The notes under the pieces: generated by a model | What the model was told of the DNA's origin: nothing | Databases searched by the model: none | The model's input: only the letters and a program-made list of their open reading frames with translations | Assembly (NCBI GenBank): GCA_963169695.1 | Contig: CAUJDS010000011.1 | Span: 121,499 to 185,498, forward strand | DNA length: 64,000 nt | Source: Bdellovibrionota bacterium | GTDB lineage: Bacteria > Bdellovibrionota > UBA1018 > CAUJDS01 | Reading direction: 5' to 3' | Translations under genes and position numbers: made by a program | In this document: positions 6,717 to 29,498 of the stretch, piece after piece | Layout: the number at the start of each line of letters is the position of its first letter | Numbering within the stretch: the first letter of the stretch is position 1

Positions 6717-9233
6717 ATGCAGAAACGAAGTCTCGTCATTGTTGAGTCCCCCACTAAGGCAAAGACCATACGCAAGTTCTTACCCAAGACCTTTGTGGTG
6801 GAAGCCAGCATGGGCCATATCCGCGACCTTCCGCAGACCGCTGCTGACGTACCAGAGAAGTATAAGAAGGAAGCCTGGGCGCGGACCGGGGTCAACGTTG
6901 ATAAGGATTTCGAGCCTGTTTACGTCACTATTAAAGGAAAATCCAAAATCATCCAAAGCCTTCGCGCCCTCATGAAAGAGTCAGACGAACTCTTTCTGGC
7001 GACTGACGAAGACCGCGAAGGAGAGAGTATTTCGTGGCACCTGGTGGAGCTGCTGAAACCCAAGATTCCGGTGAAGCGAATGGTCTTCCACGAAATCACA
7101 AAGTCCGCGATTGAGAAGGCGCTTAGCAACAGCCGGGACATCGATAAGCGACTGGTGCAGGCCCAAGAAACGCGCCGCATCCTGGATCGGCTCTTCGGAT
7201 TTACGCTCTCGCCACTGATTTGGAAGAAGATCAGCTATGGGCTTTCGGCGGGTCGAGTCCAGTCCGTAGGGCTTCGCCTTCTCGTCGAACGGGAGAAGGA
7301 GCGCCTCAAGTTTAAGCGAGCCGAGTATTGGGATATCGATGCGGTGCTTGAGAAGTCAGGCCAACGCCCCTTTAACGCAAGACTGGTTTCGATTGGTGAT
7401 CAGAAAATTGCCAGCGGTAAGGATTTTGAAAACGATACGGGTCAGCTACGCGAAGCGGGCTCAGTACGTTGGGTGCGAGAGGATGAAGCCAAAGCCCTCG
7501 CTAAGAAACTGAACAGCGAAACCTGGAAAGTCATCAGCGTCGAAGAAAAGAAATCCACGTCGCGACCTGCACCACCTTTTATTACTTCCACTCTCCAACA
7601 AGAGTGCAATAAGAAGATCGGCCTGTCCACGCGCGAGGCCATGCGTGTTGCACAGAATTTATATGAGCAAGGTCTCATCACTTATATGAGAACGGACTCT
7701 CCCAATCTTTCGAGCGAAGCCATCCAAGGCGCACGCATGATGATTGAATCGCTTTATGGCAAGCAGTACTTGTCCGATGCCCCACGACAGTTCTCTGCCA
7801 AATCCAAAGGTGCGCAAGAAGCTCACGAAGCCATTCGCCCCGCAGGCGAGGCTCCCGTGCAACCGAAAGATTCGGGGCTTTCTGGCAAGCACCTCGAAGT
7901 CTATGAGCTGATCTGGAAGCGCACGCTTGCTACGCAAATGGCTGAGGCGAAGAAGGCATCCGTGATCGTACGCATGGAAGCGGGTAATTGTCTGTTTGGT
8001 GCTTCAGGCACCCGCGTGGAATTTCCGGGATACCTCTTGGTTTATGCCGACGATGAGAGTGACAAAGAAGAAATGCTTCTTCCCCCTCTCAAAGAAGGTG
8101 ACACTTTAAAGCTACAAAAGCTCGATGCCATATCCCATGAGACCAAACCTGTGGCGCGCTTCACGGAAGCCAGCATTGTGCAACGCTTAGAAAAAGAGGG
8201 CGTGGGTCGACCGTCAACCTATGCCGCAATTATTCATACGGTATTAGAAAGAAAATACGCCGTCAAAGCGGGCAATGCACTTGTCCCCACCTTAACGGGA
8301 TTTGCGGTGATTCAGCTTTTGGAAAAATACTTTCCGCAGCTCGTCTCCTATCAATTCACTTCAGACATGGAACAAGTCCTCGACGAAATTGCGGATGGGG
8401 ATAAAGAATGGCTTCCTTACTTGCGCGAATTTTATTCGGGCAAAGAAGGCATTCGTCAGAAAGTCGACCGCACCGAAAAAGAAATCGACGCCAAAGATGC
8501 GCGCAAAATTGACCTCTTCCCTATCAAAGACACCGAACTTTTGATTGGAAGATTTGGTGCCTACGTCGTACGCAAACTCCCCGACGGTCAGGAAATTCGT
8601 GCTTCCTTACCTGAGGAAATGGCACCGGCGGATATCACCGTAGAGAAGATTGAAGAAGTTTTGTCTGCGGCTCAACGTGGCCCCGAATCAGTAGGCGTTG
8701 ATCCCGAAACTGGAATGAAGATCTTTTGCCTGCTTGGACGCTATGGACCCTATGTCCAACTGGGTGAAGAGACCGAAGGCGGTCCCAAGCCCAAGCGCGC
8801 AAGTGTACCCAAAGAAATTGATTACCGCATTATCACCCAAGCAGAAGCGCTGAAGCTGCTTAGCCTACCTCGCGTCCTTGGCAATCATCCAACTTCTGGC
8901 AATCCCATATCGGCCAATCGCGGACGATTTGGGCCCTACATTGTACATGATGGGGACTATCGTTCACTGAAGAAAGAAGATGATGTCTTCACCGTATCGC
9001 TCGAGCGCGCGCTTGCCCTGCTCGCGGAAGAAAAAAAGGGACGACGCGGATCCAAGATTCTCAAGGACTTTGGCCAGCACCCCAAGACCAAAAAGAAAAT
9101 CTCCGTACTCGAAGGAATCTACGGACCCTACATCAAGTACGGTACCAAGAACGTCAGCGTCCCAAAAGAGACCGACGTCGCTGCCCTCACCATCGAGAAG
9201 GTGCTGGAGCTCGTGGACGCGAAGGGGAAGTAA
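6717..9233 (+). CDS. topA: DNA topoisomerase I
   Basis: Toprim start 'VIVESPTKAKTIRKFLPKTFVVEASMGHIRDLP', 'DEDREGE', 'ETRRILDRLFGFTLSPLIWKK' and 'LITYMRTDS' are all present. The C-terminal region has repeated Zn-ribbon-less Topo-I C-terminal repeats ('GRFGPYV...'). Confidence 0.95.
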   Translation: MQKRSLVIVESPTKAKTIRKFLPKTFVVEASMGHIRDLPQTAADVPEKYKKEAWARTGVNVDKDFEPVYVTIKGKSKIIQSLRALMKESDELFLATDEDREGESISWHLVELLKPKIPVKRMVFHEITKSAIEKALSNSRDIDKRLVQAQETRRILDRLFGFTLSPLIWKKISYGLSAGRVQSVGLRLLVEREKERLKFKRAEYWDIDAVLEKSGQRPFNARLVSIGDQKIASGKDFENDTGQLREAGSVRWVREDEAKALAKKLNSETWKVISVEEKKSTSRPAPPFITSTLQQECNKKIGLSTREAMRVAQNLYEQGLITYMRTDSPNLSSEAIQGARMMIESLYGKQYLSDAPRQFSAKSKGAQEAHEAIRPAGEAPVQPKDSGLSGKHLEVYELIWKRTLATQMAEAKKASVIVRMEAGNCLFGASGTRVEFPGYLLVYADDESDKEEMLLPPLKEGDTLKLQKLDAISHETKPVARFTEASIVQRLEKEGVGRPSTYAAIIHTVLERKYAVKAGNALVPTLTGFAVIQLLEKYFPQLVSYQFTSDMEQVLDEIADGDKEWLPYLREFYSGKEGIRQKVDRTEKEIDAKDARKIDLFPIKDTELLIGRFGAYVVRKLPDGQEIRASLPEEMAPADITVEKIEEVLSAAQRGPESVGVDPETGMKIFCLLGRYGPYVQLGEETEGGPKPKRASVPKEIDYRIITQAEALKLLSLPRVLGNHPTSGNPISANRGRFGPYIVHDGDYRSLKKEDDVFTVSLERALALLAEEKKGRRGSKILKDFGQHPKTKKKISVLEGIYGPYIKYGTKNVSVPKETDVAALTIEKVLELVDAKGK

Positions 9234-9241
9234 AAGGTGCC

Positions 9242-9275
9242 ATTCAGAGGTGCACTGCACCTTTGAATCCTTTTT
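9242..9275 (+). terminator. Rho-independent terminator of topA
   Basis: Hairpin attcagaggtgca / tgcacctttgaat with one mismatch. It is followed by the run ccTTTTT and sits immediately 3' of the topA stop at 9233. Confidence 0.55.
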
Positions 9276-9419
9276 GGCCCGAGGTGCGTCAAGAAAAGCT
9301 CCATAGATTCATACATTCCGCACAAACGGGGTATTGGCCAAAGTCAGTTTAAGTACGAATTTGCCTATGAGAGCTAAAGCGCCTGTAACACCTATCTTTG
9401 TCTGGAGGGATCACCCTCA

Positions 9420-10595
9420 CTAAGAAAACCCTGCGACCAGGGCTTCTTCGAAATCTCGTAGGGGAAGTATTTCGATTCCTTCAGCAGTCATTTGCTTTGA
9501 GTCTCCTGAGTATACAAGCACTCTTTTTTTTACGCCCTTCAATGCAGCAATGGATTGAAGACCCCTGAGGTGTTCCGGTCGAATCTTCTTGGATGCCTTT
9601 ACTTCAATGGCAAAGAGGTCTCTCCCAGACTTAAGAAGAAAATCAACTTCGGTCTGCCCTTTGGAAGGTGCCCAGTAAAACACCTCGTCGTAACGACGAG
9701 CATTCTCGATTTCGTTTCGGATCATCGCAAATACAAATCCTTCCAAAAGACTCCCTCGCTCTTCGGGCGCGAGAGTTCCATAGACCCCCTTTGCAGCCCG
9801 AACAATTCCCGGATCGACCCAGTAAAGCTTCGGTTTCTTTTTTTCTCGAACAGTAATCTTGGCCTGGTACGGTTGAAGCCTTTTTATGAGGAGAGTATCT
9901 TCAAGAATCTGCAGGTATCCTTCGACGGTCTTTCTTTCAATTTCGACATCTCGTGCGAGACTGGACACATTGACTACTTGTCCATGGTACAGCGCGGCCA
10001 CAGGAACACTCCTCGCAAAACCAGCCAAGTTTCTGACCAACGCTTCCGCTTGAATTTCCTCGCGGATATAAAGCTGGACATAATCCTTGAGAGCCTCGTC
10101 TCTATTTTCTTGATCCCATACCAAAGGAATACTTCCCCACCGAAGAACGCTATCAAGATCGAAGTCAGATCCTAGCTCTCTTGGCAAAAGTGGCAGCATA
10201 GAACGCAACTTAGCCCTGCCTGCAAGAAGATTCACTCCAGCACGATTAAGCTTTCTGGCACTTGAGCCCGTGAGAGCAAACCTCAATCCACCGTCTTCAA
10301 TTCCTCGATGAACCTCGTTCAGCAAATTGGGTAGACGCTGTACTTCATCCACCACTACCCAAGAACCCGGTTTGAGATGTCGGATTCGATTTCTAAATGC
10401 CTCGGGGTCTACCAGGAGGTTCTGGTAGAGTCCTTCGTCCAAAAAGTTGAACCAATGTGCCTGAGAGAAGTGCTCTTTTAACCAGGTGCTCTTCCCCGTT
10501 CCCCTTGCACCAAAGAGGAAGAAGGAACCTTCTGGAGGCAAAATCGTTCGTGAGTACATCACTTCCATTATTAGTCGCATTTTGGAACTATACAA
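9420..10595 (-). CDS. COG1373-family AAA+ ATPase (AAA_14 + DUF4143 architecture), paralog A
   Basis: Walker A 'FLFGARGTGKST' and Walker B 'WVVVDEVQRL'. The conserved 'LTGSSARKL..AGVNLLAGRA' block is typical of COG1373 ATPases. Protein identity to the ORF at 13909..15060 is about 55-60%. Confidence 0.85.
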   Translation of the reverse strand: MYSSKMRLIMEVMYSRTILPPEGSFFLFGARGTGKSTWLKEHFSQAHWFNFLDEGLYQNLLVDPEAFRNRIRHLKPGSWVVVDEVQRLPNLLNEVHRGIEDGGLRFALTGSSARKLNRAGVNLLAGRAKLRSMLPLLPRELGSDFDLDSVLRWGSIPLVWDQENRDEALKDYVQLYIREEIQAEALVRNLAGFARSVPVAALYHGQVVNVSSLARDVEIERKTVEGYLQILEDTLLIKRLQPYQAKITVREKKKPKLYWVDPGIVRAAKGVYGTLAPEERGSLLEGFVFAMIRNEIENARRYDEVFYWAPSKGQTEVDFLLKSGRDLFAIEVKASKKIRPEHLRGLQSIAALKGVKKRVLVYSGDSKQMTAEGIEILPLRDFEEALVAGFS

Positions 10596-10612
10596 CTCAA
10601 AAAGATCAAGGG

Positions 10613-10633
10613 CCCTGGTAAGTCCATGCTTTC
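10613..10633 (+). repeat. Degenerate copy of the 21-bp island motif (ccctggtaagtccatgc)
   Basis: 'ggtaagtccatgc' compared with the consensus 'agtaagtccgtac' matches at 11 of 13 positions. It lies 20-40 bp upstream of the ATPase A start codon. Confidence 0.3.
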
Positions 10634-10721
10634 ACTTAAGAGATTGACCTAATGCGTTAACCATTGTACCCAAGGGACAACTTTTGACTTTTTTGTCGCG
10701 TTTGCAAACGGAGGCCGTGAC

Positions 10722-11246
10722 GTGTTGAATTTTAGGAAACTCTGGGACTCGCACCCCTACCAAACTAGCGTAAACGATCCCTGCAGCAGCAATGGCAAGC
10801 CCAACTATTCAGATCAATGCGCGATCCGAATTGGAGCCACGCTCGCAAAATGCGGAGTAAAGTCCAATGCTCTGTCAGGCACCAGGCATTGCTGGTTTCA
10901 CAGTTCATCCGAAGGTCACATACTTTCTGCAGAGGAACTAGCGGGAGCACTAGAAAGGACCAGATTGCCTGGGTCTCAAAACATACGCAAGATACATCCA
11001 GATCTTTTTAAGAAGGAATTGATTGGAAAAACGGGAATCATTTTTTTTAAGGACTATTGGCAACGCACCTCAGGCAATTCCAAAGAAAGTTTCCGAAATC
11101 GATCCGGCGATCACATTGATCTATGGAATGGCTATCGCTTGGCCCACATGCGATCTATCGTTCAGCTGTATCTTAGAATCGGGTCTATCGGACTTGGTTC
11201 AGATCACTCTCAAAGCAAAGAAATCTGGTTTTGGGAGGTCCCATGA
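10722..11246 (+). CDS. Tae4-family (type VI amidase effector 4-like, papain-fold) peptidoglycan amidase toxin
   Basis: 'DQCAIRIGATLAKCG' compares with Tae4 'NACPIRMSYVLN', which carries the catalytic Cys. 'IGKTGIIFFKDYW......SGDHIDLWNGYRLAH' compares with Tae4 'IGKKGIIVVKGHGWSNARGHVTLWNGSICSD', which carries the catalytic His. The product is 174 aa with no signal peptide. Confidence 0.6.
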   Translation: MLNFRKLWDSHPYQTSVNDPCSSNGKPNYSDQCAIRIGATLAKCGVKSNALSGTRHCWFHSSSEGHILSAEELAGALERTRLPGSQNIRKIHPDLFKKELIGKTGIIFFKDYWQRTSGNSKESFRNRSGDHIDLWNGYRLAHMRSIVQLYLRIGSIGLGSDHSQSKEIWFWEVP

Positions 11247-11452
11247 AAACCATCTCCACCGTGATCGGCGCACTCAGTGGAGGGGTTCTTTCGTTTCTCT
11301 GCTTTTCGCTCATTTCATGGTGGCAAATGCGTCAGCTAGGTTACGAGCCGCGAGTATCGGATCAGCTCATTGACACCTTTCTTCTTTGTACGCCATTTTT
11401 GATGATGTTCACTGGATGGCTTGGCTATCGCCGAGCTAGAAAATCAGTTTAG
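11231..11452 (+). CDS. Small two-TM membrane protein, candidate cognate immunity protein of the Tae4-like toxin
   Basis: The ORF overlaps the toxin stop codon, with Met codons at 11231 and 11243. It has two hydrophobic helices: 'TVIGALSGGVLSFLCFSLISWW' and 'TFLLCTPFLMMFTGWLGY'. A 5'-truncated duplicate of its 3' end lies 186 bp downstream. Confidence 0.4.
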   Translation: MGGPMKTISTVIGALSGGVLSFLCFSLISWWQMRQLGYEPRVSDQLIDTFLLCTPFLMMFTGWLGYRRARKSV

Positions 11453-11500
11453 GCACCGGAGCTAGCTTCAACTTGCCAGTACAACATTTTGATGCGACGA

Positions 11501-11521
11501 GTCCCAGAAGTAAGTCCGTAC
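11501..11521 (+). repeat. 21-bp island motif copy (gtcccagaagtaagtccgtac)
   Basis: Close match to the consensus GTCCCATAAGTAAGTCCGTAC. It sits between the two tandem copies of the immunity-gene 3' end. Confidence 0.6.
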
Positions 11522-11533
11522 CATCCCCGCTAA

Positions 11534-11626
11534 CCGCGAGTATCAGATCAGCTCATTGACACCTTTCTTCTTTTTACTCCATTTTCGATGACGTTCACTG
11601 GATGGCTTGGCTATCGCCGAGCTAGG
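11534..11626 (+). repeat. Tandem duplicate (~93 nt, ~93% identical) of the 3' end of the 11231..11452 gene (copy A at ~11348-11440); an orphan immunity-gene fragment
   Basis: Copy B keeps the reading frame and encodes PRVSDQLIDTFLLFTPFSMTFTGWLGYRRARK*, against PRVSDQLIDTFLLCTPFLMMFTGWLGYRRARKSV* in the intact gene. An in-frame TAA lies just upstream. No start codon is present. Confidence 0.7.
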
Positions 11627-11935
11627 AAGTAAATCGTCTGCCCAAGTACGAACTTTCATCAGAGGTATTTTGCATCGCTACCTCAGTGGAGATCTTTTGG
11701 ACCCGCAGGCAGCAGATTTAGCAAAAATTAGAAAGTGGGCATAGATGTGAGTACTTCATCAATTTCTCACTTAGGACAGACAGCATAGGCTGAGATATTG
11801 GGCACCTGTTGAACTCATCTAACGGAACGAACAAAGGAAAGCGAGAATTTGCTTGGTTTTTTGGGGAATCAGAATCAAAGTGATTCTGAGAAGTTTCGCT
11901 ACACTGCACTAGAAAAAATTTTTTTATGGAATTGA

Positions 11936-13354
11936 ATGGATAAGTCTAAGAGCGAGGGACATCTTAAGCCGACCTGCATTTTCCCATTTTTAGGGACACT
12001 CCTCCTCTTCTCGTGTACACATCCAGGTAAGGTTTCCACGGAAAGGGATGATGCTTTTCCGCTTCACGATTCACCAGCAGACTATCAGTCCCCTTCCGAA
12101 AGCCTTCGCCTGTATTTTGAAACAATTGAAAAGGCCAACCTTCTTTCCAAGGCAAAGAAGAACCGTTTAAGTTCCGAGGAGCAAAGGTTCTTGAGTGCTG
12201 CAGCTTTTCTTCTGCAAGAGCAGTTAAAACTCGAATCGCAACTCAAACAGAAAAAAGAGATCGAAATTCTTCCCGGTCGCTCCTATTCGTTTGCACTGGA
12301 GTCATTCTGTGTCAATTCTGGAAAGGAGCGGCCGATACCAGGTGATGGATTCCGACTTGGTTCCCTAAAAGGAGCATCTGAGGAATGGTTGCCACTGATA
12401 CTTGATGGATATTTCGACAAAAAAATTCCGCAAGAGCGGATTCAGATTCTGATTTGGGCGCTTTTGTCCGACTCTCGATTTGATGAACTAACGCCGACAC
12501 AGCAAGCTGACCTTCTAAGACTTGTCCCAAATGCGAGAATGCGATTCGGAAACCGGCGACTTAAAAACGCTGCAAAAAGTATTCTAGATGATCTACTGCC
12601 AGATGAAGTCAGGGATCTGCAAAGTCGTTTTGAAAACCACCGCTTGATTCTGCGTGATGTATCCCAAACCTATAAGGAAATCTCTGAATTACTGGCGCCC
12701 ATTCCGACCCGAAATCAATCAATTGAGCAAGGGTGGATAAAGGTTCATTTGGGCTATTTGGCTCGAGTGAGCTCAATTACCGGATACTCTTCCGTGAGAC
12801 TCGAAATCTTTATGCCTCTAGGTGTGGATCCGCTCCTTCGTCCTTCTAAATACATCGCACTACCCGGCTCGGGGCAGCGATTAGCACTGAGCGCCAATGT
12901 AATTCCATTTTGGCATGCTCCTTATCGAGAGATCACCGATAGGCTGGCAAACTTGGGGGCGGGGCGTGAACTATCCAAGGCCGAACAAGACCTGATCCGA
13001 AAGTATCCCCTCGATGCGTACAAAGCTTACTCCAATTCTCTTACGGCGACTGAAAGTGCGCTAAAACACTTTCCTCAATTTCCAATCCCTCACAATAATC
13101 CAGCCGATGCTTTTCGCCATTTTGTCTGGGCTGCACTGAATACAAAGGATTTGGGCGCTTCTCGAGCGCGAGAATTTTTAGAAGCCCATGAAGATCGGCC
13201 CAACCAACCTAAAGGCGAGGCCGAAATCGATCGCTGGAATAACGAAAAAGGAATTGAAACGGCTGAAATACTCGGATCCCTTGCGACATTAACCGATTTC
13301 GAGAAAGCAGGTCTTGATGCACTTCAAAAGCAAGAACTTAGGACCTTGCGATGA
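11936..13354 (+). CDS. Lipoprotein with a conserved C-terminal domain (candidate secreted effector/toxin), function unknown
   Basis: The lipobox 'LLLFSC' follows a hydrophobic N-terminus. The C-terminal block 'NNPADAFRHFVWAALNTKDLGASRAREFLEAHEDRPNQPKGEAEIDRWNNEKG' looks like a conserved catalytic-type module. Its stop overlaps the start of the next gene (ATGA). Confidence 0.5.
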   Translation: MDKSKSEGHLKPTCIFPFLGTLLLFSCTHPGKVSTERDDAFPLHDSPADYQSPSESLRLYFETIEKANLLSKAKKNRLSSEEQRFLSAAAFLLQEQLKLESQLKQKKEIEILPGRSYSFALESFCVNSGKERPIPGDGFRLGSLKGASEEWLPLILDGYFDKKIPQERIQILIWALLSDSRFDELTPTQQADLLRLVPNARMRFGNRRLKNAAKSILDDLLPDEVRDLQSRFENHRLILRDVSQTYKEISELLAPIPTRNQSIEQGWIKVHLGYLARVSSITGYSSVRLEIFMPLGVDPLLRPSKYIALPGSGQRLALSANVIPFWHAPYREITDRLANLGAGRELSKAEQDLIRKYPLDAYKAYSNSLTATESALKHFPQFPIPHNNPADAFRHFVWAALNTKDLGASRAREFLEAHEDRPNQPKGEAEIDRWNNEKGIETAEILGSLATLTDFEKAGLDALQKQELRTLR

Positions 13355-13818
13355 AAGTTTTTCGGAGTTTTCTAACATTCTCAAAGAAAGCTCTGCTGGT
13401 ATACTTGGTTCTCTGTGTTTTTATGTTCTTTTTTTCAAAAACGGATACCTGTTTTTATTTGCTTCAGAAAATAGTTTACGGTCATGAGTTTCTTACCGCA
13501 GCTCAAGCCGAAAAAAAATGGGGCCGAATGCTATTTGATGCAACAAAATTTCGAACGAATCAAAATCGAAAGGAAATGGTAGCAGACATTATTCGCAGCC
13601 AAATTCTTATTGGGCTCACCTATGACGAAGTGAAAACCCTATTGGGAAATAGTGGAGGGGGCTATTATATCTCTGACGAAGTCCTCACATACCATGTATT
13701 TGTGGCTCACAATTCAAGGCGGGATGTGACTGAAGCTTATAGTCTCCTAGTTTTGACAAGCGACAATTCCGACCTGCGGAGTCGAGTAGATAGAGTTTAT
13801 CTTTGGAAAGACCGTTAA
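13351..13818 (+). CDS. Small membrane-anchored protein, candidate immunity/partner of the upstream lipoprotein
   Basis: The 155-aa ORF is translationally coupled by an ATGA overlap. It has an N-terminal TM segment 'ALLVYLVLCVFMFFF' followed by a soluble domain. Confidence 0.4.
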   Translation: MKVFRSFLTFSKKALLVYLVLCVFMFFFSKTDTCFYLLQKIVYGHEFLTAAQAEKKWGRMLFDATKFRTNQNRKEMVADIIRSQILIGLTYDEVKTLLGNSGGGYYISDEVLTYHVFVAHNSRRDVTEAYSLLVLTSDNSDLRSRVDRVYLWKDR

Positions 13819-13830
13819 CGATATGAGAAA

Positions 13831-13904
13831 CCGTACGGAGCTACTTCCTTATGGGACTTGGCGCATTACGATTGACGTAACCACTTACATAAGTAAGTCG
13901 TACC
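13831..13904. terminator. Inverted pair of the island motif forming an imperfect hairpin between convergent genes; candidate bidirectional terminator or recombination site
   Basis: 13831-13857 'ccgtacggagctacttccttatgggac' is the motif in reverse complement. 13884-13904 'cttacataagtaagtcgtacc' is in the direct orientation. The pair lies between the stop at 13818 on the + strand and the stop at 13909 on the - strand. Confidence 0.45.
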
Positions 13905-13908
13905 TTTT

Positions 13909-15060
13909 TCAAACCAATCCCGTTTTCAGTTCATCCGAAAATTGCTGAAATCCCATAACTTCAATCCCATCGCTCGTCTCTTGATGCTCGACTGAGGGAT
14001 AGACAAGAATCCGGCGCTTTAACTTTGGAAGATCCCCAATAGACTTCAGACCAGCAAGGTCATCCTTGCGAAGGCGCTCACCGGACTTGACTTCCACTGC
14101 AGCAAACTTTGAATGGGCTTTCACAATAAAATCTACTTCCAGATCCGGCGTACCCCAATAGGATATTTCGTCTATCGTCCCTTGATAATACTGAGCGGAT
14201 CGCAGTAGCATAAAAACAAGTCCCTCAAAAAGCGGGCCCCTTTCCGTAGCAACCAAGGGACCCCAGTCCTCCCGAATGGCACGTACCAAACCCGGATCTA
14301 CCCAATAAAACTTTGGATGCCTCCTCTCTTTCACTCTTAGGCCAGACTCAAAGGGGTACAGGAGCTTTCCTAAAAGGGTGTCTTCTAAAATAGAAAAATA
14401 ATTTTCTACCGTCGGGCGTTTCACAGCTGCATCACGCGCCACAGAAGACAAACTGAGCGTCTGCCCATGAAGGAGAGCACTCACCTTCAAAAATCTCAGA
14501 AAGCTTGGAAGATCCTTAACAAGTGCTTCGGTTTGGATTTCGTCTCGGATATAAGTTTGAACATAGGCTTTGAGTCGCTCTTTCTTGTCCTCAGAGGCAA
14601 ATACAATCGGCAAGGAGCCAAATCTAAGGATCTGGTCAAGATCAAAGTCCTTCCCCAATTCTTCGGGCACAAAGGGAAACATCAGTTTGGACAATGCTCT
14701 ACCTGCAAGCAGATTGACCCCGGCACGCTTCATTTTGCGCGCACTCGATCCAGAGAGCGCAAACTTCAATTGCTTGTTCTCGATCCCCCAATGAACTTCA
14801 TTCAGCAAGGAAGGAAGCCGTTGAACTTCATCGATCCAAACCCAGTCTCCTGCCTTCAGAACTTGAATCTTAGAACGAAATAATCCAGGTTCACTCGCAT
14901 AGCGTATGAATAACTCCTGTGAAAGCAGGTCCACATGCAGAGCGGGGCGTAGGTGTTCTTTGAGGAACGATGTCTTCCCGGACCCTCGTGGACCAAAAAG
15001 AAAAAAGCTCGTATTTGGGAGCTCAAAAAGTCTTCCGTACATGAAATCTATTTTATCCAC
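13909..15060 (-). CDS. COG1373-family AAA+ ATPase (AAA_14 + DUF4143), paralog B
   Basis: Walker A 'FLFGPRGSGKTS', Walker B 'WVWIDEVQRL' and the 'LSGSSARKMKRAGVNLLAGRA' block are present. It is collinear with the 9420..10595 product along its whole length. Confidence 0.85.
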   Translation of the reverse strand: MDKIDFMYGRLFELPNTSFFLFGPRGSGKTSFLKEHLRPALHVDLLSQELFIRYASEPGLFRSKIQVLKAGDWVWIDEVQRLPSLLNEVHWGIENKQLKFALSGSSARKMKRAGVNLLAGRALSKLMFPFVPEELGKDFDLDQILRFGSLPIVFASEDKKERLKAYVQTYIRDEIQTEALVKDLPSFLRFLKVSALLHGQTLSLSSVARDAAVKRPTVENYFSILEDTLLGKLLYPFESGLRVKERRHPKFYWVDPGLVRAIREDWGPLVATERGPLFEGLVFMLLRSAQYYQGTIDEISYWGTPDLEVDFIVKAHSKFAAVEVKSGERLRKDDLAGLKSIGDLPKLKRRILVYPSVEHQETSDGIEVMGFQQFSDELKTGLV

Positions 15061-15192
15061 ACCACATTAAAAACGACAGTCTTTTTTCATGTGACGTGAG
15101 CTTAATTTTTAGTCTGCAATTACAATTAGTTACGAGTTTTATTCGGGTATGGAGTTACATCCGGGATAGGTCGAGTCCGAATAACGCAGCCA

Positions 15193-15214
15193 GTCCCATA
15201 AGTAAGTCCGTACC
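15193..15214 (+). repeat. 21-bp island motif copy (gtcccataagtaagtccgtacc)
   Basis: Exact consensus copy. It lies 133 bp upstream of the ATPase B start and just 3' of the 15231..15851 gene, next to the inverted repeat ttattcgg/ccgaataa at 15141-15183. Confidence 0.6.
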
Positions 15215-15230
15215 TGGCTCGAAATAAAAC

Positions 15231-15851
15231 TTATTTATTTAGAGCGTCCTCATGGTAGCCATGTTTTCTAAAATAATCTTTAAAACAAAGTGCACTGATT
15301 CTTAATGTGTACTTTCCTCTACTTTCAGTGTGAGGAAGTGGATTTTTTCCATTGATGTTAGTCCAACTTTGATCGCGTCTCATTTCATAAACAAATTCCG
15401 CTTCGCTCAGATAATTTCGACCGAGAGCAAGATATTTGTAAGCAAAAGGAACGTCTTTCATTTCAACTTTTCCATCTCGATCAACAATCGGAAGAGACAA
15501 CCAAATCCCTCTATTAGGTCGATCAGTTGGAATGGAAAACGGGATACCCGCTTTTCCTAAATTGGTACTGAAAACCATTTTTCGCTCTTCTTTGACTTCA
15601 GCGTCTCCAAGCTTTGTAACGATGTCACCTCGACTTGCCGTAATGGAGACAACTTCAAGCCCACCTTCTTGCTTGTTCTCATGAAGACTGTAGATAGCCT
15701 CAAAGTTTTCGCCATTAGGATATAGATATCTCAGTCCTTCGTAATAGGTCGACCTCGCAAGAGTGGCTTTTCCGCAGGTAGCAGCAATAGAAAACGATGC
15801 AAAAACCGCCGATATCACAGAAAAAGATGCGAAGAGTTTAAAGGAATTCAT
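15231..15851 (-). CDS. Secreted/lipoprotein of unknown function
   Basis: A start at the internal Met gives the signal peptide 'MNSFKLFASFSVISAVFASFSIAATC'. The product is about 206 aa. Confidence 0.5.
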   Translation of the reverse strand: MNSFKLFASFSVISAVFASFSIAATCGKATLARSTYYEGLRYLYPNGENFEAIYSLHENKQEGGLEVVSITASRGDIVTKLGDAEVKEERKMVFSTNLGKAGIPFSIPTDRPNRGIWLSLPIVDRDGKVEMKDVPFAYKYLALGRNYLSEAEFVYEMRRDQSWTNINGKNPLPHTESRGKYTLRISALCFKDYFRKHGYHEDALNK

Positions 15852-16065
15852 GCTTCTTAGCCTCCAAGGTTCTAACATTTTGATAGAGCTTTATATCAAA
15901 GATTTAATTTAAATACCAGACTGTTTTAGTCATTTTTTTCATCTGTGAAATGCATGCGATTCTGATGATTTATGAGCTCCCAACAAAATCGTTCTCCTGG
16001 CCAAGCGTAGTTTTTGGGTAGCTGCCCGTAAAAGCTCTCTCTTTAGAGCAGGCTAAACTGATTGG

Positions 16066-16086
16066 TCCCATAAGTAAGTCCGTACT
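16066..16086 (+). repeat. 21-bp island motif copy (gtcccataagtaagtccgtac)
   Basis: Exact consensus copy. It lies between the start of the 15231..15851 gene and the 3' end of the GT2 gene. Confidence 0.6.
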
Positions 16087-16088
16087 TC

Positions 16089-16892
16089 CTAAAACCCGCG
16101 AGTCACCCGCTTATGCCAACTAGAAAAAAGAGGGCCTAGCAGGGGCGTGCCGCGTATCACTCGCTCCACCGGGGGGCGAGTGGTTTGGTAGCCAAGCCAG
16201 AAAAGACGCGAGCTCCAACCGCCGATTCCGTTTTTCTTTTTGGCGCGATAGCACTCAAGCGCTTCTTTCTTTCCGCGACTCGTGTCACTCACGCCGCCCG
16301 TACTCATCGTCGTCACCACTCGTGGAAAGTAATGATAGCGAGATTGGCCATATCCCCTTAGGTGCATTTCGTAGTCCATCGCGATCTTAAAGCTTGGGTC
16401 AAAGTCACCGTACTTTTCGAAGTAGGTGCGTCTCGTAAAAGTCGCTGGATGCGGGACGGTCATCCTCTGCCAGAGGTACTTCCACGCACGTTCATTGCCA
16501 ATGGTCATGACGGGTTGATCGGTATCACGATCAGCAATTACGACACGACCATAGGCTATATCGGCGTCATCTCGGAGTTCGGACAGGACCTCTTGAAGTA
16601 CGTTATCGTCCGCCAAACGATCGTCCGAATTGAGAAACAGAATCCAATCTCCCGTCGCACGTCGCACGCCCTTACTAAAGGCGTCCGAAATGCCCTTATC
16701 CGCCTCTGAAATCCACTTGGCGTGCGGGAAATTTTTTACGAGATCGATGGTTGCATCCTTGGAACCGCCATCAATTACCCAATGCTCAATAAGCTTCGGA
16801 TCACAGTTCTGAGCCACAACGCTTTCCAGAGTTCGAGCGATGGTCTTCTCAGAGTTCCAAGCGATAGTGATGATGCTCAATCGAGGATTCAT
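16089..16892 (-). CDS. Family 2 glycosyltransferase
   Basis: 'LSIITIAWNSEKTIARTLESVVAQ', 'HWVIDGGSKDAT' and 'ILFLNSDDRLADDNVL' match the GT2 DXD-type organisation. Confidence 0.85.
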   Translation of the reverse strand: MNPRLSIITIAWNSEKTIARTLESVVAQNCDPKLIEHWVIDGGSKDATIDLVKNFPHAKWISEADKGISDAFSKGVRRATGDWILFLNSDDRLADDNVLQEVLSELRDDADIAYGRVVIADRDTDQPVMTIGNERAWKYLWQRMTVPHPATFTRRTYFEKYGDFDPSFKIAMDYEMHLRGYGQSRYHYFPRVVTTMSTGGVSDTSRGKKEALECYRAKKKNGIGGWSSRLFWLGYQTTRPPVERVIRGTPLLGPLFSSWHKRVTRGF

Positions 16893-27908: not shown

Positions 27909-29498
27909 CTACTTTGCCTGAGTTGCGCTGGGACCCGCGGGACTATTAAGGGAGCCTATTACTGAGGCTGAGTTCATCTTACTCTTCTGATTCGAAACTT
28001 TTGGTGAATCGATCGATGGAGCATGCAATGAGGCTTCTATTTTTCCAATGGTTTTGAGCAGAATTGAGAGCTCACTTATAGCTACAGGATCTTTCTCTCG
28101 AACTTTATTGATCTGAGCTTGGTAGCCGAGCTCCGCTTCTTTGACTGAAACATTGTAACCCTTCGCGATTGCCCACATTATGGCTGGCAGAATCGTAGGA
28201 TTATCCTGAATGTAGGGTAAGGCGGCAATTTCTTTAAGGGATAGAAGTAGAGATCCAATCTCAGTTGTCTCTAATTCAGAAAGCTCTAAGGCGCTCGCAA
28301 CTTTATCTTTGTCACCTATAAAGCGCTTTTTCATTCTCATGCTATCGAGAAGAAAATGCTCAAAGACAGAGTGAGTGTCTTTTTTTCTGTTTTGCTTTGG
28401 ACTCAGGGCCGCAAACTTTGCAGCCGCAAGAAACTCAGGATCGGCCTTGATTTCTTCGGACAAGATCTTTTCATACTGTTTCTTAAATTCCATATCGGAA
28501 CGATTTGCGAGATAGATGAAATAGGAAGGCCCCGCCACCGCCCCATTATCCATTAACAGGTTCATTATCTGCGGAAGTCTAGTGGGAGCTGCAGAATCAA
28601 GGGGTGTTCTACCGAATTCGTCCTTCGCATTTACCGTCGCCCCATTATCGATTAACAGCCTTACCATGCTTTCATCTGCTGAAAAAGCTGCTCCATGAAG
28701 GGGCGTTGTACCTGAATTACTCTTAACGTTTACCTTCGCTCCATTCTTAATCAACAGGTTTACTATTGCCAAGTTACCTTTAAGGACGGCTCGGTGAATT
28801 GGAAAGACTCCGCTAATGTTCTGCGCAGATGCGACTGCACCCTTTTCTATTAGGAGAGCAACTGCGTCTAATTTTCCGGCATTGACTGCTTCGTGAAGTG
28901 GCGTGTCACCCTCGGCGTCTTTGGCGTTGACGTCCGCGCCCTTTGAGATCAGTAAGTTTATCGTTTCGAGACTGCCTTCGTGAGCTGCGAAGTGAAGGGC
29001 TGATTGTCCACTAAAATCTCTGACGTCTACATCCATTCCTTTTTTAATCAACAATTCAGCTGCTTTGGCCTTTCCTGCTCCAGCAGAACTATGAAGAACC
29101 GTTTCACCATACACATTCGATTTGCCTTTAAATTCTACGCCAACACTCATCAGCAGGATTAATGTGTCAATTTGACCCGCACGAGCTGCATAGTCCAGCA
29201 CCGTATCGCCACGAACGTCGCTGGCGGTTAGGTCTGCTCCGTTTGAAATTAATCGCATAACTATATTAGCACTCCCTTCGCTAGAAGCGCGAAATAGAGG
29301 TGAATCGCTACTGTATGAAAGGCTATTAATACTAGCGCCTGAATGAATCGCGGCGTTAACTCTTTTTTCATCTTTTGCCTCAATAGCGTACCTTAGCTCA
29401 CTCTGGAGTGCTTCCTTCTCGTCAGTGACTTGAGCATGAGCGAAAGTAGTCAAAAGGAGAAATCCCAGACTGGCACAGCAAACTCTTGGAGGTATCAT
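27909..29498 (-). CDS. Secreted ankyrin-repeat protein
   Basis: Signal peptide, then about 9 ANK repeats such as 'GDTPLHEAVNAGKLDAVALLIEKGA' and 'GTTPLHGAAFSADESMVRLLIDNGA'. There is a non-ANK C-terminal region. Confidence 0.85.
   Translation of the reverse strand: MIPPRVCCASLGFLLLTTFAHAQVTDEKEALQSELRYAIEAKDEKRVNAAIHSGASINSLSYSSDSPLFRASSEGSANIVMRLISNGADLTASDVRGDTVLDYAARAGQIDTLILLMSVGVEFKGKSNVYGETVLHSSAGAGKAKAAELLIKKGMDVDVRDFSGQSALHFAAHEGSLETINLLISKGADVNAKDAEGDTPLHEAVNAGKLDAVALLIEKGAVASAQNISGVFPIHRAVLKGNLAIVNLLIKNGAKVNVKSNSGTTPLHGAAFSADESMVRLLIDNGATVNAKDEFGRTPLDSAAPTRLPQIMNLLMDNGAVAGPSYFIYLANRSDMEFKKQYEKILSEEIKADPEFLAAAKFAALSPKQNRKKDTHSVFEHFLLDSMRMKKRFIGDKDKVASALELSELETTEIGSLLLSLKEIAALPYIQDNPTILPAIMWAIAKGYNVSVKEAELGYQAQINKVREKDPVAISELSILLKTIGKIEASLHAPSIDSPKVSNQKSKMNSASVIGSLNSPAGPSATQAK

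What the first reader, a model, noticed from the sequence alone, without database searches (positions are those of the whole stretch)
9420..16090. Compact conflict/defence-like island: two paralogous COG1373 ATPases in direct orientation flank toxin-immunity cassettes bounded by a shared 21-bp motif
Paralog A (9420..10595) and paralog B (13909..15060) are 55-60% identical AAA_14/DUF4143 ATPases on the same strand, with motifs read directly from the sequence.

Between them lie:
- a Tae4-family amidase gene;
- an overlapping small membrane-protein gene, followed by a truncated duplicate of its 3' end;
- a lipoprotein with a conserved C-terminal module;
- a small membrane-protein gene overlapping that lipoprotein gene by ATGA.

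Each unit is delimited by a copy of GTCCCATAAGTAAGTCCGTAC. COG1373 ATPases have been reported as enriched in prokaryotic defence islands (established knowledge), but their function is unknown. A fixed association of these ATPases with swappable toxin/immunity cassettes and a dedicated boundary motif would be an undescribed system organisation (inference).
Basis: partly seen in the sequence, partly recalled or inferred. Interest (0 to 1): 0.78.

Follow-up and report, generated by a model that had tools for sequence, protein, structure and literature searches.

The report
Patchwork toxin and defence gene island
A 6.7-kb stretch in a Bdellovibrio-like genome holds two candidate anti-phage ATPase-nucleases and two toxin/immunity-type gene pairs that are found separately in other genomes, and its 21-bp 'boundary motif' is one arm of a palindromic repeat also found beside housekeeping genes in a related genome, so this is an ordinary accretion island, not a new integrated system.

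Summary
The genes are real and mostly as described. There are two AAA_14+DUF4143 ATPases, a Tae4 amidase with an ATGA-overlapping 69-aa two-TM partner, a 95-nt duplicate of that partner's 3' end, a DUF6973 lipoprotein with an ATGA-overlapping 155-aa membrane protein, and three (near-)exact copies of GTCCCATAAGTAAGTCCGTAC.

Corrections:
- The ATPases are 49% identical, not 55-60%.
- ATPase A is closer (57-70%) to homologues named from other phyla than to ATPase B.
- No motif copy separates ATPase A from Tae4.

The proposed "system" is not supported:
- Both ATPases match PADLOC PDC-S01, an abundant, already catalogued single-gene defence candidate.
- Three close ATPase A homologues sit in unrelated neighbourhoods with no Tae4 or DUF6973.
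- The Tae4+partner pair and a DUF6973 lipoprotein recur elsewhere with no COG1373 ATPase called within 6-8 kb.
- The 21-mer is one arm of a 67-103-nt palindromic repeat that lies next to housekeeping genes in a related Bdellovibrionaceae MAG.

Added value: DUF6973 looks like a Wnt-like (Min-Wnt/Lipocone) toxin tip on a polymorphic lipoprotein, which a 2025 paper described as a class.

Unexplained: one arm is conserved perfectly while the other has decayed, and copies sit just after stop codons. A cassette-recombination role is therefore not excluded.

The parts
9353..9373 (-). Degenerate left-arm-like copy of the palindromic repeat at the left edge of the island (6 of 21 mismatches)
   Evidence: Hamming scan. 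Hits with <=6 mismatches are expected 1.37 times per 64 kb, so about 0.004 in this 187-nt spacer. topA's own intrinsic terminator lies at 9242-9268.
9420..10595 (-). ATPase A: AAA_14 P-loop ATPase + DUF4143 (PD-(D/E)xK) = COG1373 / PADLOC PDC-S01 candidate. The probable real start is at 10568 (382 aa).
   Evidence: Pfam; PADLOC PDC-S01 E 1.9e-57; 100% match to P0001, 382 aa.
10722..11246 (+). Tae4-family peptidoglycan amidase, 174 aa; no obvious N-terminal signal peptide by eye (no predictor run)
   Evidence: Pfam PF14113 E 4.8e-22. Homologues are 49-69% identical, several named T6SS Tae4. Invariant C33, H131 and D133 (A7). The family profile hits Ssp1 4BI3 and Tae4 6IJF across the C33 region, CAIR aligned to CAVR.
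11243..11452 (+). 69-aa two-TM partner of Tae4 (putative immunity). It overlaps Tae4 by ATGA and has a conserved inter-TM loop GYxPxxSDxLID and a basic C-terminus.
   Evidence: Sequence. The same overlapping pair occurs in L017 and L021/22 with 48% and 39% identical partners. Only about 8 short homologues exist among 1.84 billion representatives.
11455..11521 (+). Palindromic-repeat copy: right arm 11501-11521 (1 mismatch) plus 14 nt of spacer identical to L006; the left arm is barely recognisable
11534..11632 (+). In-frame remnant (codons ~36-67 plus stop) of a second copy of the Tae4-partner gene, 94% identical to 11348-11442
   Evidence: Public assemblies of the same strain break at 11436/11596, on either side of this repeat.
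11936..13354 (+). Polymorphic lipoprotein effector: lipobox, conserved ~330-aa N-terminal region, and a C-terminal DUF6973 that is a Wnt-like (Min-Wnt/Lipocone-type) five-helix toxin tip
13351..13818 (+). 155-aa membrane-anchored protein overlapping the lipoprotein gene by ATGA; candidate immunity protein
   Evidence: Sequence. No family hit. AF2 single-sequence model is poor (pLDDT 48); its predicted order, TM helix then two helices then strands, is compatible with a BamE-like fold but does not show it.
13833..13899 (+). Decayed complete palindromic unit between the convergent 155-aa gene and ATPase B
13909..15060 (-). ATPase B: second COG1373/PDC-S01 protein, 49% identical to A. The probable real start is at 15042 (377 aa).
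15147..15213 (+). Palindromic unit: decayed left arm 15147-15167, perfect right arm 15193-15213, which ends 18 nt before the stop-codon end (15231) of the 215-aa gene
15231..15878 (-). 215-aa protein with a signal-peptide-like N-terminus (read by eye), no family assignment, and the lowest G+C of the island (40%)
16065..16085 (+). Solo perfect 21-mer at the right edge of the island, ending 4 nt before the stop-codon end (16089) of the GT2 glycosyltransferase gene

Best explanation
Window ~9350-16085 is a small variable island between topA and a GT2 glycosyltransferase gene. It was built by accretion of independent modules, most or all probably acquired horizontally, and each module works on its own. 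The modules are as follows.

1. Two stand-alone AAA+ ATPase / PD-(D/E)xK nuclease proteins (COG1373 = PADLOC PDC-S01). Their presumed role, which is inferred and not validated for this family, is nucleic-acid-directed anti-phage or anti-mobile-element defence.

2. A Tae4 cysteine amidase that would cut peptidoglycan. It is translationally coupled to a 69-aa two-TM protein whose conserved loop, by the positive-inside rule, should face the periplasm. This is most likely a toxin/immunity pair. A vestigial 3' fragment of an older copy of the immunity gene lies just downstream.

3. A lipoprotein effector with a conserved N-terminal delivery region and an exchangeable C-terminal tip. Here the tip is a Wnt-like Lipocone domain, predicted to attack phosphate-linked lipid head groups such as lipid II or undecaprenyl carriers. 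It is coupled to a membrane-anchored candidate immunity protein.

4. A probably secreted protein of unknown role.

The shared 21-mer is the right arm of a lineage-specific, sharply bounded 67-103-nt palindromic repeat of REP/REPIN- or MITE-like type. It also occurs beside ordinary genes in a related genome. It punctuates the island because such repeats settle in intergenic spacers just after genes, and possibly because they provide homology for recombination (inferred). It is not a dedicated component of an ATPase-toxin system.
For: MODULE IDENTITIES
- Pfam and PADLOC assignments.
- PDC-S01 is described as a widespread, unvalidated single-gene candidate: an ATPase fused to a PD-(D/E)xK nuclease (PMC12988326). 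DUF4143 is listed in the PD-(D/E)xK superfamily (PMC3424549).

MODULE INDEPENDENCE
- ATPase A homologues lie beside a NotI-type R-M pair, housekeeping genes or a PIN toxin-antitoxin.
- Tae4+partner pairs occur in L017 and L021/22, and a DUF6973 lipoprotein in L025, with no COG1373 ATPase called nearby.
- None of those loci holds the motif.
- A versus B is 49% identical, while A versus homologues named from other phyla is 57-70%.
- L007's topA is only 41% identical to the window's, while its ATPase is 70% identical. This points to horizontal transfer.

TOXIN ARCHITECTURE
- The family shares an N-terminal region but swaps the C-terminal tip between DUF6973 and NlpC/P60.
- The structural match to Wnt and the H/E/D plus sNxxG residues fit the Min-Wnt definition (PMC12419801).

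REPEAT
- Perfect palindromic units occur in MAG HK-STAS-BDEL-4 on three contigs beside ordinary genes.
- One copy in a metagenome contig is interrupted by an IS30-family transposase gene.
- Copies share internal spacer sequence, and homology ends sharply at ...GTAC.

COMPOSITION
- Island G+C is 45% against 52% for topA and GT2.
Against: - The repeat is strikingly concentrated. Six of the seven hits with <=6 mismatches in 64 kb lie in the 6.7-kb island.
- Its right arm is perfectly kept while the left arms have decayed. A passive-repeat view does not explain either fact.
- Only a handful of neighbourhoods were inspected: 3 for ATPase A, 2 for Tae4 and 2 for the lipoprotein family. No enrichment statistic was computed.
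- The topA-GT2 interval of related genomes could not be fetched, so variability of the island is inferred from composition and mosaic homology, not seen directly.
- The four public assemblies of the same strain all show the same arrangement.
- Immunity roles of the 69-aa and 155-aa proteins are inferred from linkage and topology only. The gene after the L025 homologue is unrelated to the 155-aa protein.
Confidence: 0.7

Rival explanations
1. Cassette-capture array. The 21-mer arm is a site-specific recombination site (attC- or att-like) used by a recombinase encoded elsewhere. Small gene cassettes were inserted one after another at a palindromic unit downstream of the GT2 gene, each insertion leaving a copy of the arm.
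For: - Four right arms share the same orientation, at 11501, 13879, 15193 and 16065.
- Three arms are (near-)perfect while left arms are decayed and show no compensatory changes.
- Solo perfect 21-mers have no adjacent unit sequence.
- Arms lie 4-18 nt after the stop-codon end of a minus-strand gene in 3 of 4 window copies, and 3-7 nt in L003 and L004.
- The segments between copies hold one or two genes of unrelated origin.
- The whole island lies between an inverted decayed arm (9353) and a perfect arm (16065).
- A vestigial gene fragment abuts the copy at 11501.
Against: - No tyrosine recombinase or IS30-type transposase was found in the 64-kb window by tblastn. This is a weak test with two query proteins.
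- No integron-type core sites (RYYYAAC / GTTRRRY) are present at the unit ends.
- Genes between copies point in both directions.
- In the related MAG, units occur singly beside housekeeping genes rather than in arrays.
- No copy separates ATPase A from Tae4.
- Homologous cassettes elsewhere lack the motif.
- No alternative cassette order was seen in four public assemblies.
Confidence: 0.1
2. One reading: an integrated system in which COG1373 ATPases are functionally tied to exchangeable toxin/immunity cassettes, with the 21-bp motif as its dedicated boundary or recognition element.
For: Two ATPases, two toxin-type cassettes and the motif co-occur within 6.7 kb. ATPase B is bracketed by two palindromic units.
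Against: - Close ATPase homologues lack toxin cassettes, the motif and any flanking repeat.
- Both toxin modules recur elsewhere with no COG1373 ATPase called nearby.
- The motif lies beside ordinary genes in a related MAG, with no island protein nearby.
- The ATPases are not recent duplicates.
Confidence: 0.04
3. The repeat is mainly a cis-acting expression element, such as a 3'-end hairpin, mRNA stabiliser, terminator or protein-binding site placed after genes. Its abundance here reflects the need to insulate convergently and divergently transcribed foreign modules. This concerns the repeat's function only and is compatible with the best explanation.
For: - Every copy lies in an intergenic spacer, and most lie directly downstream of a stop codon.
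- Intact units in the related MAG have 21-28-nt perfectly complementary arms.
- Two window units fold better than shuffles, with z about -2.3.
Against: - In the window, pairing is not maintained. Left arms have decayed with no compensatory change, and the units at 11501 and 16065 fold no better than shuffles.
- The copies were not reported by the terminator scan of the region, which needs a short stem-loop followed by a T-run.
- No Rfam match was found.
Confidence: 0.15
4. For the first cassette only: Tae4 plus the small two-TM protein is a holin/endolysin-like lysis or export module, not a toxin/immunity pair.
For: - The amidase has no obvious signal peptide (read by eye).
- The partner is 69 aa with two TM segments and a strongly basic C-terminus, and the two genes overlap.
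- Tae4 matches a phage protein family of unknown function, phrog_27157, at E 3.4e-16.
- No T6SS gene is called within 6 kb of the pair in L017 or L021.
Against: - The closest named relatives are annotated as T6SS effectors.
- There is no prophage context in L017, L021 or the window.
- The most conserved part of the partner is the loop predicted to face the periplasm, as expected for an inhibitor of a periplasm-acting enzyme.
- A vestigial extra copy of the partner gene is typical of immunity-gene turnover.
Confidence: 0.12

Closest known systems
PADLOC PDC-S01 (COG1373; AAA_14 + DUF4143 ATPase-nuclease), a candidate single-gene phage-defence system
   Same: Both ATPases match several PDC-S01 models strongly (E down to 1.9e-57 and 8.1e-41) and have the same two-domain architecture. 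The family is reported as among the most abundant 'defence' calls in prokaryotes (PMC12988326, PMC13356809).
   Different: Nothing distinctive. Defence activity is unvalidated for the family and was not tested here. Two divergent copies 3.3 kb apart is a local peculiarity, not a new architecture.
Tae4-Tai4 type VI amidase effector / immunity pairs (e.g. Serratia Ssp1-Rap1a, Agrobacterium Tae4)
   Same: The Pfam Tae4 domain is matched over its full length, Cys/His/Asp are invariant, and the gene is immediately followed by a small partner gene.
   Different: The partner is a 69-aa two-TM protein, not a soluble periplasmic Tai4-type protein. No T6SS gene is called next to this pair or its two homologous pairs. 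From my own knowledge, not tested here: the well-studied Bdellovibrio bacteriovorus is not known to have a T6SS.
Lipocone-superfamily (Min-Wnt) polymorphic lipoprotein toxins with membrane-anchored BamE-like immunity proteins (Burroughs, Nicastro & Aravind, eLife 2025, PMC12419801)
   Same: Shared features are a lipobox, a conserved N-terminal region and an exchangeable C-terminal tip. The tip is a five-helix domain structurally matching Wnt, with His (H2), Glu (end of H3) and Asp plus sNxxG (H4). The gene is coupled to a small membrane-anchored protein.
   Different: - The paper does not mention Pfam DUF6973, so the equation DUF6973 = Min-Wnt is my inference from structure and motifs.
- The motif lacks the final Arg (NNxKGI).
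- The cystatin-like nature of the N-terminal region and the BamE-like fold of the 155-aa protein were not established.
- The best structural match, B. fragilis BteO, is reported as a non-enzymatic OmpA binder (PMC12541434).
REP/REPIN elements and MITEs (short dispersed palindromic repeats of bacterial genomes)
   Same: The units are 67-103 nt with 21-28-nt terminal inverted repeats and sharp ends. They are intergenic, often just after genes, occur in several copies on different contigs of a related genome, and one copy is hit by an IS element.
   Different: - Copy number appears low: 3 loci with an exact arm in the one MAG found, and none outside the island in this 64-kb window.
- No associated RAYT or transposase was identified, and no clear target-site duplication.
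- Arm conservation in the island is strongly asymmetric.
Integron attC sites / CALIN cassette arrays
   Same: Imperfect palindromes of similar size lie right after ORFs. They share one orientation and separate one- or two-gene units that include toxin-type modules.
   Different: There is no integron core sequence and no integrase in 64 kb. Gene orientation is mixed. Units also occur singly beside core genes in a related genome.

Membership tests
COG1373 / PADLOC PDC-S01 | N-terminal AAA_14 P-loop ATPase domain with Walker A and B | tested here: met
   PF13173 E 2.3e-17 (A) and 5e-15 (B), both above cut-off. The motifs are visible in the translations.
COG1373 / PADLOC PDC-S01 | C-terminal DUF4143 (PD-(D/E)xK-type) domain | tested here: met
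   PF13635 E 1.1e-33 (A) and 1.4e-27 (B). The superfamily assignment is from PMC3424549.
COG1373 / PADLOC PDC-S01 | Match to the PADLOC PDC-S01 profile HMMs | tested here: met
   A matches 7 PDC-S01 models (best 1.9e-57). B matches 7 models (best 8.1e-41).
COG1373 / PADLOC PDC-S01 | Protects against phage | not testable with these tools
   Described as awaiting experimental validation (PMC12988326).
Tae4 (T6SS amidase effector 4) | Pfam PF14113 domain above the gathering score | tested here: met
   78.8 bits against a cut-off of 27, covering profile positions 1-125 of 125.
Tae4 (T6SS amidase effector 4) | Conserved catalytic Cys and His of the papain-like amidase | tested here: met
   C33, H131 and D133 are invariant in 27 homologues. 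The C33 region aligns to the CAVR segment of Ssp1 4BI3. That this Cys is the catalytic residue comes from my own knowledge of the family.
Tae4 (T6SS amidase effector 4) | Genomic linkage to a T6SS (Hcp/VgrG/PAAR or a T6SS cluster) | tested here: inconclusive
   None is called in the island or within 6 kb of the homologous pairs in L017 and L021. Only about 20 ORFs of the window were scanned, and the rest of the genome was not available.
Tae4 (T6SS amidase effector 4) | Adjacent soluble periplasmic Tai4-type immunity protein | tested here: not met
   The partner is a 69-aa two-TM protein whose only Pfam hit is a sub-threshold FtsX match.
Min-Wnt / Lipocone polymorphic toxin | Helical Lipocone core with the fifth helix of the SAA-Wnt clade | tested here: met
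   [not shown]
Min-Wnt / Lipocone polymorphic toxin | Active-site His (H2), Glu (H3), Asp (H4) and the sNxxGR motif | tested here: met
   H395, E419, D432, N435, N436 and G439 are invariant in 23 sequences. The final R of the motif is not conserved. The criteria are from PMC12419801.
Min-Wnt / Lipocone polymorphic toxin | Polymorphic architecture: shared N-terminal region with alternative C-terminal tips | tested here: met
   P0265 and P0266 share the first ~330 aa and carry NlpC/P60 instead of DUF6973.
Min-Wnt / Lipocone polymorphic toxin | Cognate membrane-anchored BamE-like immunity protein downstream | tested here: inconclusive
   A 155-aa protein with an N-terminal TM segment overlaps by ATGA. 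The model is too poor (pLDDT 48) to assign a fold. The gene downstream of the L025 homologue is not homologous. The paper calls these proteins rapidly evolving.
Min-Wnt / Lipocone polymorphic toxin | Cleavage or exchange of phosphate-linked lipid head groups | not testable with these tools
   Needs biochemistry.
REP/REPIN- or MITE-like dispersed repeat | Short unit with terminal inverted repeats and sharp ends | tested here: met
   L003 has a 101-nt unit with 28-nt perfect arms. L005 (70 nt) and L004 (74 nt) also have complete units. Homology stops at GTAC in all 9 copies.
REP/REPIN- or MITE-like dispersed repeat | Several copies dispersed in intergenic DNA of a genome | tested here: met
   There are 4-5 copies on three contigs of MAG HK-STAS-BDEL-4, all intergenic. 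The full copy number is unknown.
REP/REPIN- or MITE-like dispersed repeat | Target-site duplication or an associated transposase (RAYT or parent IS) | tested here: inconclusive
   Possible 4-nt repeats near the ends are offset by 0-3 nt. No transposase is present in the window. The genomes could not be scanned.
Integron attC / cassette array | Conserved core sites R'' RYYYAAC and R' GTTRRRY at the ends of the palindrome | tested here: not met
   The unit ends are GGTACGGAC...GTCCGTACC.
Integron attC / cassette array | Integron integrase nearby | tested here: not met
   tblastn with a XerC-type recombinase against the 64-kb window found nothing better than E 7.6. This is a weak test. CALIN arrays lack an integrase by definition.
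Integron attC / cassette array | Sites confined to arrays of co-oriented cassettes | tested here: not met
   Gene orientation in the island is mixed. Single units lie beside housekeeping genes in the related MAG.

The most novel reading that the evidence does not exclude
The 21-nt arm GTCCCATAAGTAAGTCCGTAC is the recombination site of a lineage-specific, integron-like but non-integron cassette-capture system in Bdellovibrionaceae. A recombinase encoded elsewhere inserts one- or two-gene conflict modules (defence ATPases, toxin/immunity pairs) at palindromic units just downstream of genes. This would explain the same-orientation perfect arms, the solo arms, the decayed partner arms and the vestigial gene fragment.
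Probability: 0.08. Interest if true: 0.72.

Novelty: new member of a known kind. Interest (0 to 1): 0.25.

Why it matters
As an 'ATPase-toxin-motif system' it does not hold up, so it opens no new mechanism.

Its modest value is descriptive:
- It is a compact example of how candidate defence genes (PDC-S01) and interbacterial toxin modules pile up in one variable spot of a predatory-lineage genome.
- It links the uncharacterised Pfam family DUF6973 to the recently defined Wnt-like Lipocone toxins.
- It shows a Tae4 amidase paired with a rare two-TM partner outside any visible T6SS context.
- It exposes a lineage-specific palindromic repeat whose one-sided conservation is unexplained. If that repeat proved to be a recombination site, the locus would become interesting.

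Tried and rejected
- Exact look-up of ATPase A failed twice: with the TTG start and as its 100% identical cluster representative P0001. The source contig of 185,531 bp therefore could not be fetched beyond the window.
- Look-ups of the lipoprotein, GT2 and Tae4 returned only contigs of the same strain (>=99.95% identical). All show the same arrangement and break at the 95-nt duplication, so no population variants were seen.
- The metagenome scan for the motif gave one 1.4-kb contig. The viral scan gave none.
- Rfam found no match in 9000-16300 at E <= 1.
- NCBIfam found nothing for any island protein. PHROGs gave one unknown-function family for Tae4.
- Pfam at E <= 10 found nothing for the 155-aa and 215-aa proteins.
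- PDB sequence searches with single proteins gave no hit for Tae4 or ATPase A, and only chance-level hits (E 0.4-0.6) for the lipoprotein.
- The single-sequence AF2 model of the 155-aa protein was too poor to search. The afdb50 fold library was unavailable.
- A search for target-site duplications around intact units was inconclusive.
- No other palindromic repeat family is present in the window.
- No repeats flank ATPase homologues in L007, L008 or L010. I therefore dropped the idea that COG1373 genes are themselves mobile units bounded by repeats.
- One literature search ('AAA_14' + 'defense') returned only irrelevant papers because the underscore is ignored.

Full report
WHAT IS IN THE SEQUENCE

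ORFs 9420..10595(-) and 13909..15060(-) both carry AAA_14 plus DUF4143 above Pfam thresholds. Walker A, Walker B and a D...E-x-K motif are visible in the translations. Gene calls in public assemblies start slightly later, giving 382/386 aa for A and 377 aa for B.

Between the two ATPases lie the following.
- A 174-aa Tae4 amidase at 10722..11246 (PF14113, E 4.8e-22).
- A 69-aa ORF whose ATG at 11243 overlaps the Tae4 stop as ATGA.
- A 95-nt, 94% identical, in-frame copy of that ORF's 3' end at 11534-11628.
- A 472-aa lipoprotein with a C-terminal DUF6973 at 11936..13354.
- A 155-aa membrane protein overlapping it by ATGA at 13351..13818.

A 215-aa protein with a signal-peptide-like N-terminus and no family match follows ATPase B at 15231..15878(-). 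The region sits between topA (6717..9233), which has its own terminator at 9242-9268, and a GT2 glycosyltransferase (16089..16892, -). Island G+C is 45%, falling to 40% in the 215-aa gene, against 52% for the two flanking genes.

CORRECTIONS TO THE OBSERVATION

The two ATPases are 49% identical over 380 residues, not 55-60%.

The 21-mer GTCCCATAAGTAAGTCCGTAC occurs exactly at 15193 and 16065 and with one mismatch at 11501, against 0 expected by chance. It does not delimit every unit. Nothing recognisable separates ATPase A from Tae4, and the left edge has only a 6-mismatch inverted copy at 9353-9373.

The motif is not free-standing. Reverse-complement partners lie 25-45 nt upstream at 13833-13857 and 15147-15167, and a degenerate direct copy lies at 13879-13899. 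The 21-mer is therefore the right arm of a palindromic unit about 67 nt long.

WHAT THE MOTIF IS

An exact-match scan of one genome per species found the 21-mer in a single other genome, MAG Bdellovibrionaceae HK-STAS-BDEL-4, on three contigs. There the units are intact.
- L003 has 28-nt perfect arms in a 101-nt unit.
- L005 has a 70-nt unit.
- L004 has a 74-nt unit with one mismatch per arm, plus a solo arm.

These copies lie between ordinary genes: a TIGR02147-like protein and a ClpX-like ATPase, an FkbM-type methyltransferase and a lipoprotein, upstream of a DivIVA-like gene, and downstream of an OmpA-like gene. These labels are my reading of the translations. tblastn found no island protein in those loci.

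The metagenome scan found one small contig in which an IS30-family transposase gene interrupts the left arm of a unit. Viral contigs hold none.

Copies share internal spacer sequence. For example, TTTTGATGCGACGA precedes the arm in both window 11501 and L006. In all nine copies, homology stops sharply at ...GTAC.

None of the loci fetched for homologues of the ATPase, Tae4 or the lipoprotein in other organisms holds the motif. The motif therefore belongs to the lineage, not to the cassettes. It behaves as a REP/REPIN- or MITE-like dispersed palindromic repeat. Rfam has no match.

THE ATPASES

Both match PADLOC's PDC-S01 models (E 1.9e-57 and 8.1e-41). PDC-S01 is an already catalogued single-gene phage-defence candidate, described as an ATPase fused to a PD-(D/E)xK nuclease. 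It is reported as the fourth most common defence call across prokaryotes and still awaits experimental validation (PMC12988326; also PMC13356809). DUF4143/COG1373 was placed in the PD-(D/E)xK superfamily in 2012 (PMC3424549).

The homologue search saturated: 7,998 of the 8,000 candidates scored had E <= 1e-30. Proteins 57-60% identical to ATPase A are named by their sources as coming from Planctomycetota, Thermoanaerobaculia and Solirubrobacterales. A is thus closer to these than to B, so the pair is not a local duplication.

The three close homologues whose contigs could be read lie in different settings.
- L007: next to a D12 methyltransferase plus NotI-type endonuclease and a DUF4325/HATPase pair.
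- L008: among housekeeping genes.
- L010: near a PIN toxin and the tuf-secE-nusG cluster.

None has Tae4 or DUF6973, and none has flanking repeats. L007's topA is only 41% identical to the window's while its ATPase is 70% identical, which points to horizontal transfer.

THE TAE4 CASSETTE

Homologues are 49-69% identical, and several are named as T6SS Tae4 effectors of Proteobacteria. Cys33, His131 and Asp133 are invariant. A family profile reaches the solved Tae4-family structures Ssp1 (4BI3) and Agrobacterium Tae4 (6IJF) and aligns across the Cys33 region.

The overlapping small gene is a conserved partner. In L017 (Tae4 69% identical) and L021/22 (65%), a 72-76-aa ORF overlaps the Tae4 stop by 4 nt. 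These partners are 48% and 39% identical to the window's. The strongest conservation is in the loop between the two TM segments, GYxPxxSDxLID.

By the positive-inside rule (C-terminal RRARK), that loop should face the periplasm, which fits an immunity role against a periplasm-acting amidase. This is an inference.

Neither locus has a COG1373 ATPase or a T6SS gene called within 6 kb. The partner family is rare, with about eight short homologues among 1.84 billion cluster representatives. It is not a Tai4-type protein.

A holin/endolysin-like reading cannot be excluded. The amidase has no obvious signal peptide, the partner is small with two TM segments and a basic tail, and Tae4 hits a phage family of unknown function. 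I rate this reading lower than the toxin/immunity reading.

The truncated duplicate downstream looks like a vestige of immunity-gene turnover.

THE LIPOPROTEIN CASSETTE

Only 25 homologues were found. Twenty-two carry DUF6973. Two others (P0265, P0266) share the first ~330 residues and instead end in an NlpC/P60 domain. A shared N-terminal region with an exchangeable tip is the hallmark of a polymorphic toxin.

Foldseek also ranks BteO first (probability 0.99).

The C-terminal domain has five helices (348-464). Its invariant residues are His395, Glu419, Asp432 and Asn435-Asn436-x-x-Gly439. This fits the definition of the prokaryotic Min-Wnt family of the Lipocone superfamily: His in H2, Glu in H3, Asp in H4, an sNxxGR motif and a fifth helix (PMC12419801).

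That paper also describes lipobox-bearing Min-Wnt toxins fused to a shared N-terminal domain with alternative tips, including papain-like ones. These are coupled to rapidly evolving, membrane-anchored BamE-like immunity proteins.

The 155-aa protein has an N-terminal TM segment, and its predicted secondary-structure order is compatible with that fold. The model is too poor to decide (pLDDT 48). The gene after the L025 homologue is unrelated in sequence.

The paper does not mention DUF6973, so that link is my inference. BteO is reported to act non-enzymatically by binding OmpA (PMC12541434). The invariant His/Glu/Asp set here favours an enzyme.

In L025 the lipoprotein sits beside tig-clpP-clpX-lon and a PIN-type toxin-antitoxin, with no COG1373 ATPase within 8 kb.

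SYNTHESIS

Each module of the island recurs elsewhere without the others, and the motif recurs elsewhere without any of them. The region is best read as an accretion island of autonomous conflict modules, punctuated by a lineage-specific palindromic repeat.

The evidence base is a handful of neighbourhoods, not a statistic. Four public assemblies of the same strain show the identical arrangement and break only at the 95-nt duplication.

WHAT REMAINS ODD

Six of the seven hits with <=6 mismatches in the 64-kb window lie inside the 6.7-kb island, where 1.37 are expected in the whole window. No other palindromic family is present.

The right arms at 11501, 15193 and 16065 have 0-1 mismatches. The left arms have at least 5-6 or are unrecognisable, with no compensating changes, so the hairpin is not being maintained.

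The copy at 16065, and the one at L004 1166, are solo perfect 21-mers with no unit sequence beside them.

In three of four window copies, and in L003 and L004, the arm lies 3-18 nt beyond the stop-codon end of a gene reading towards it.

The whole island is bracketed by a decayed inverted arm at 9353 and the perfect arm at 16065.

These features would fit a site used for recombination. Against that reading:
- the unit ends carry no integron-type core sequence;
- tblastn with two query proteins found no recombinase in the window;
- gene orientation in the island is mixed;
- single units lie beside core genes in the related MAG.

I give the cassette-capture reading about 0.1.

VERDICT

The components are known kinds: the PDC-S01 candidate, the Tae4 family, a Min-Wnt/Lipocone polymorphic toxin and a REP/MITE-like repeat. 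Overall interest is low, at 0.25.

Noticed in passing
[not shown]
   Followed up: yes
window 10722-11452; L017 6001-6740; L021 6001-6752: A Tae4 amidase with an ATGA-overlapping 69-76-aa two-TM partner is a conserved two-gene module found in unrelated contexts, with no T6SS gene called within 6 kb. The partner family is rare (about 8 short representatives) and has no Pfam family. Whether it is an immunity protein or holin-like is open.
   Followed up: partly
window 11501-11521, 15193-15213, 16065-16085 versus 13833-13857, 15147-15167, 9353-9373: Conservation of the palindromic repeat is one-sided. Right arms are (near-)perfect and left arms are decayed with no compensatory change. Solo perfect arms sit 3-18 nt after stop codons of genes reading towards them, also in L003 and L004.
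   Followed up: partly
L006 221-1322: In a metagenome contig, an IS30-family transposase gene interrupts the left arm of a palindromic unit. This suggests the repeat can be a target for IS insertion.
   Followed up: no
window 9341-9373 and 11629-11664: Short similarities (AAAGTCAGTTTAAGTACGAA... and ...AAGTACGAACTTTCATCAGAG) resemble the end of the Tae4-partner gene plus the start of a left arm. They lie at the left island edge and after the truncated duplicate. They may be further vestiges of cassette turnover, but the similarity is weak.
   Followed up: partly
window 11436/11596: Public read-set assemblies of the same strain (ERR10643333-5, ERR15459719) all break on either side of the 95-nt duplication. 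Otherwise they match the window at >=99.95%.
   Followed up: yes
L007 8164-12110: The closest retrievable ATPase A homologue (70% identity) lies directly after a D12 adenine methyltransferase plus NotI-type endonuclease pair and before a DUF4325 / HATPase_c_2 pair. This is a typical defence-island setting, about 6 kb from that genome's topA.
   Followed up: no
window 27909-29498 (-) and 74-4939 (+): A 529-aa protein made largely of ankyrin repeats, and a 1621-aa protein whose only Pfam match is an N-terminal M48 peptidase segment. Both are unusual-looking bacterial proteins unrelated to the finding.
   Followed up: no
window 15231-15878 (-): A 215-aa protein with a signal-peptide-like N-terminus has no match in Pfam, NCBIfam, PHROGs or PADLOC. 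It has the lowest G+C of the region (40%) and is neatly bracketed by two perfect 21-mers.
   Followed up: partly
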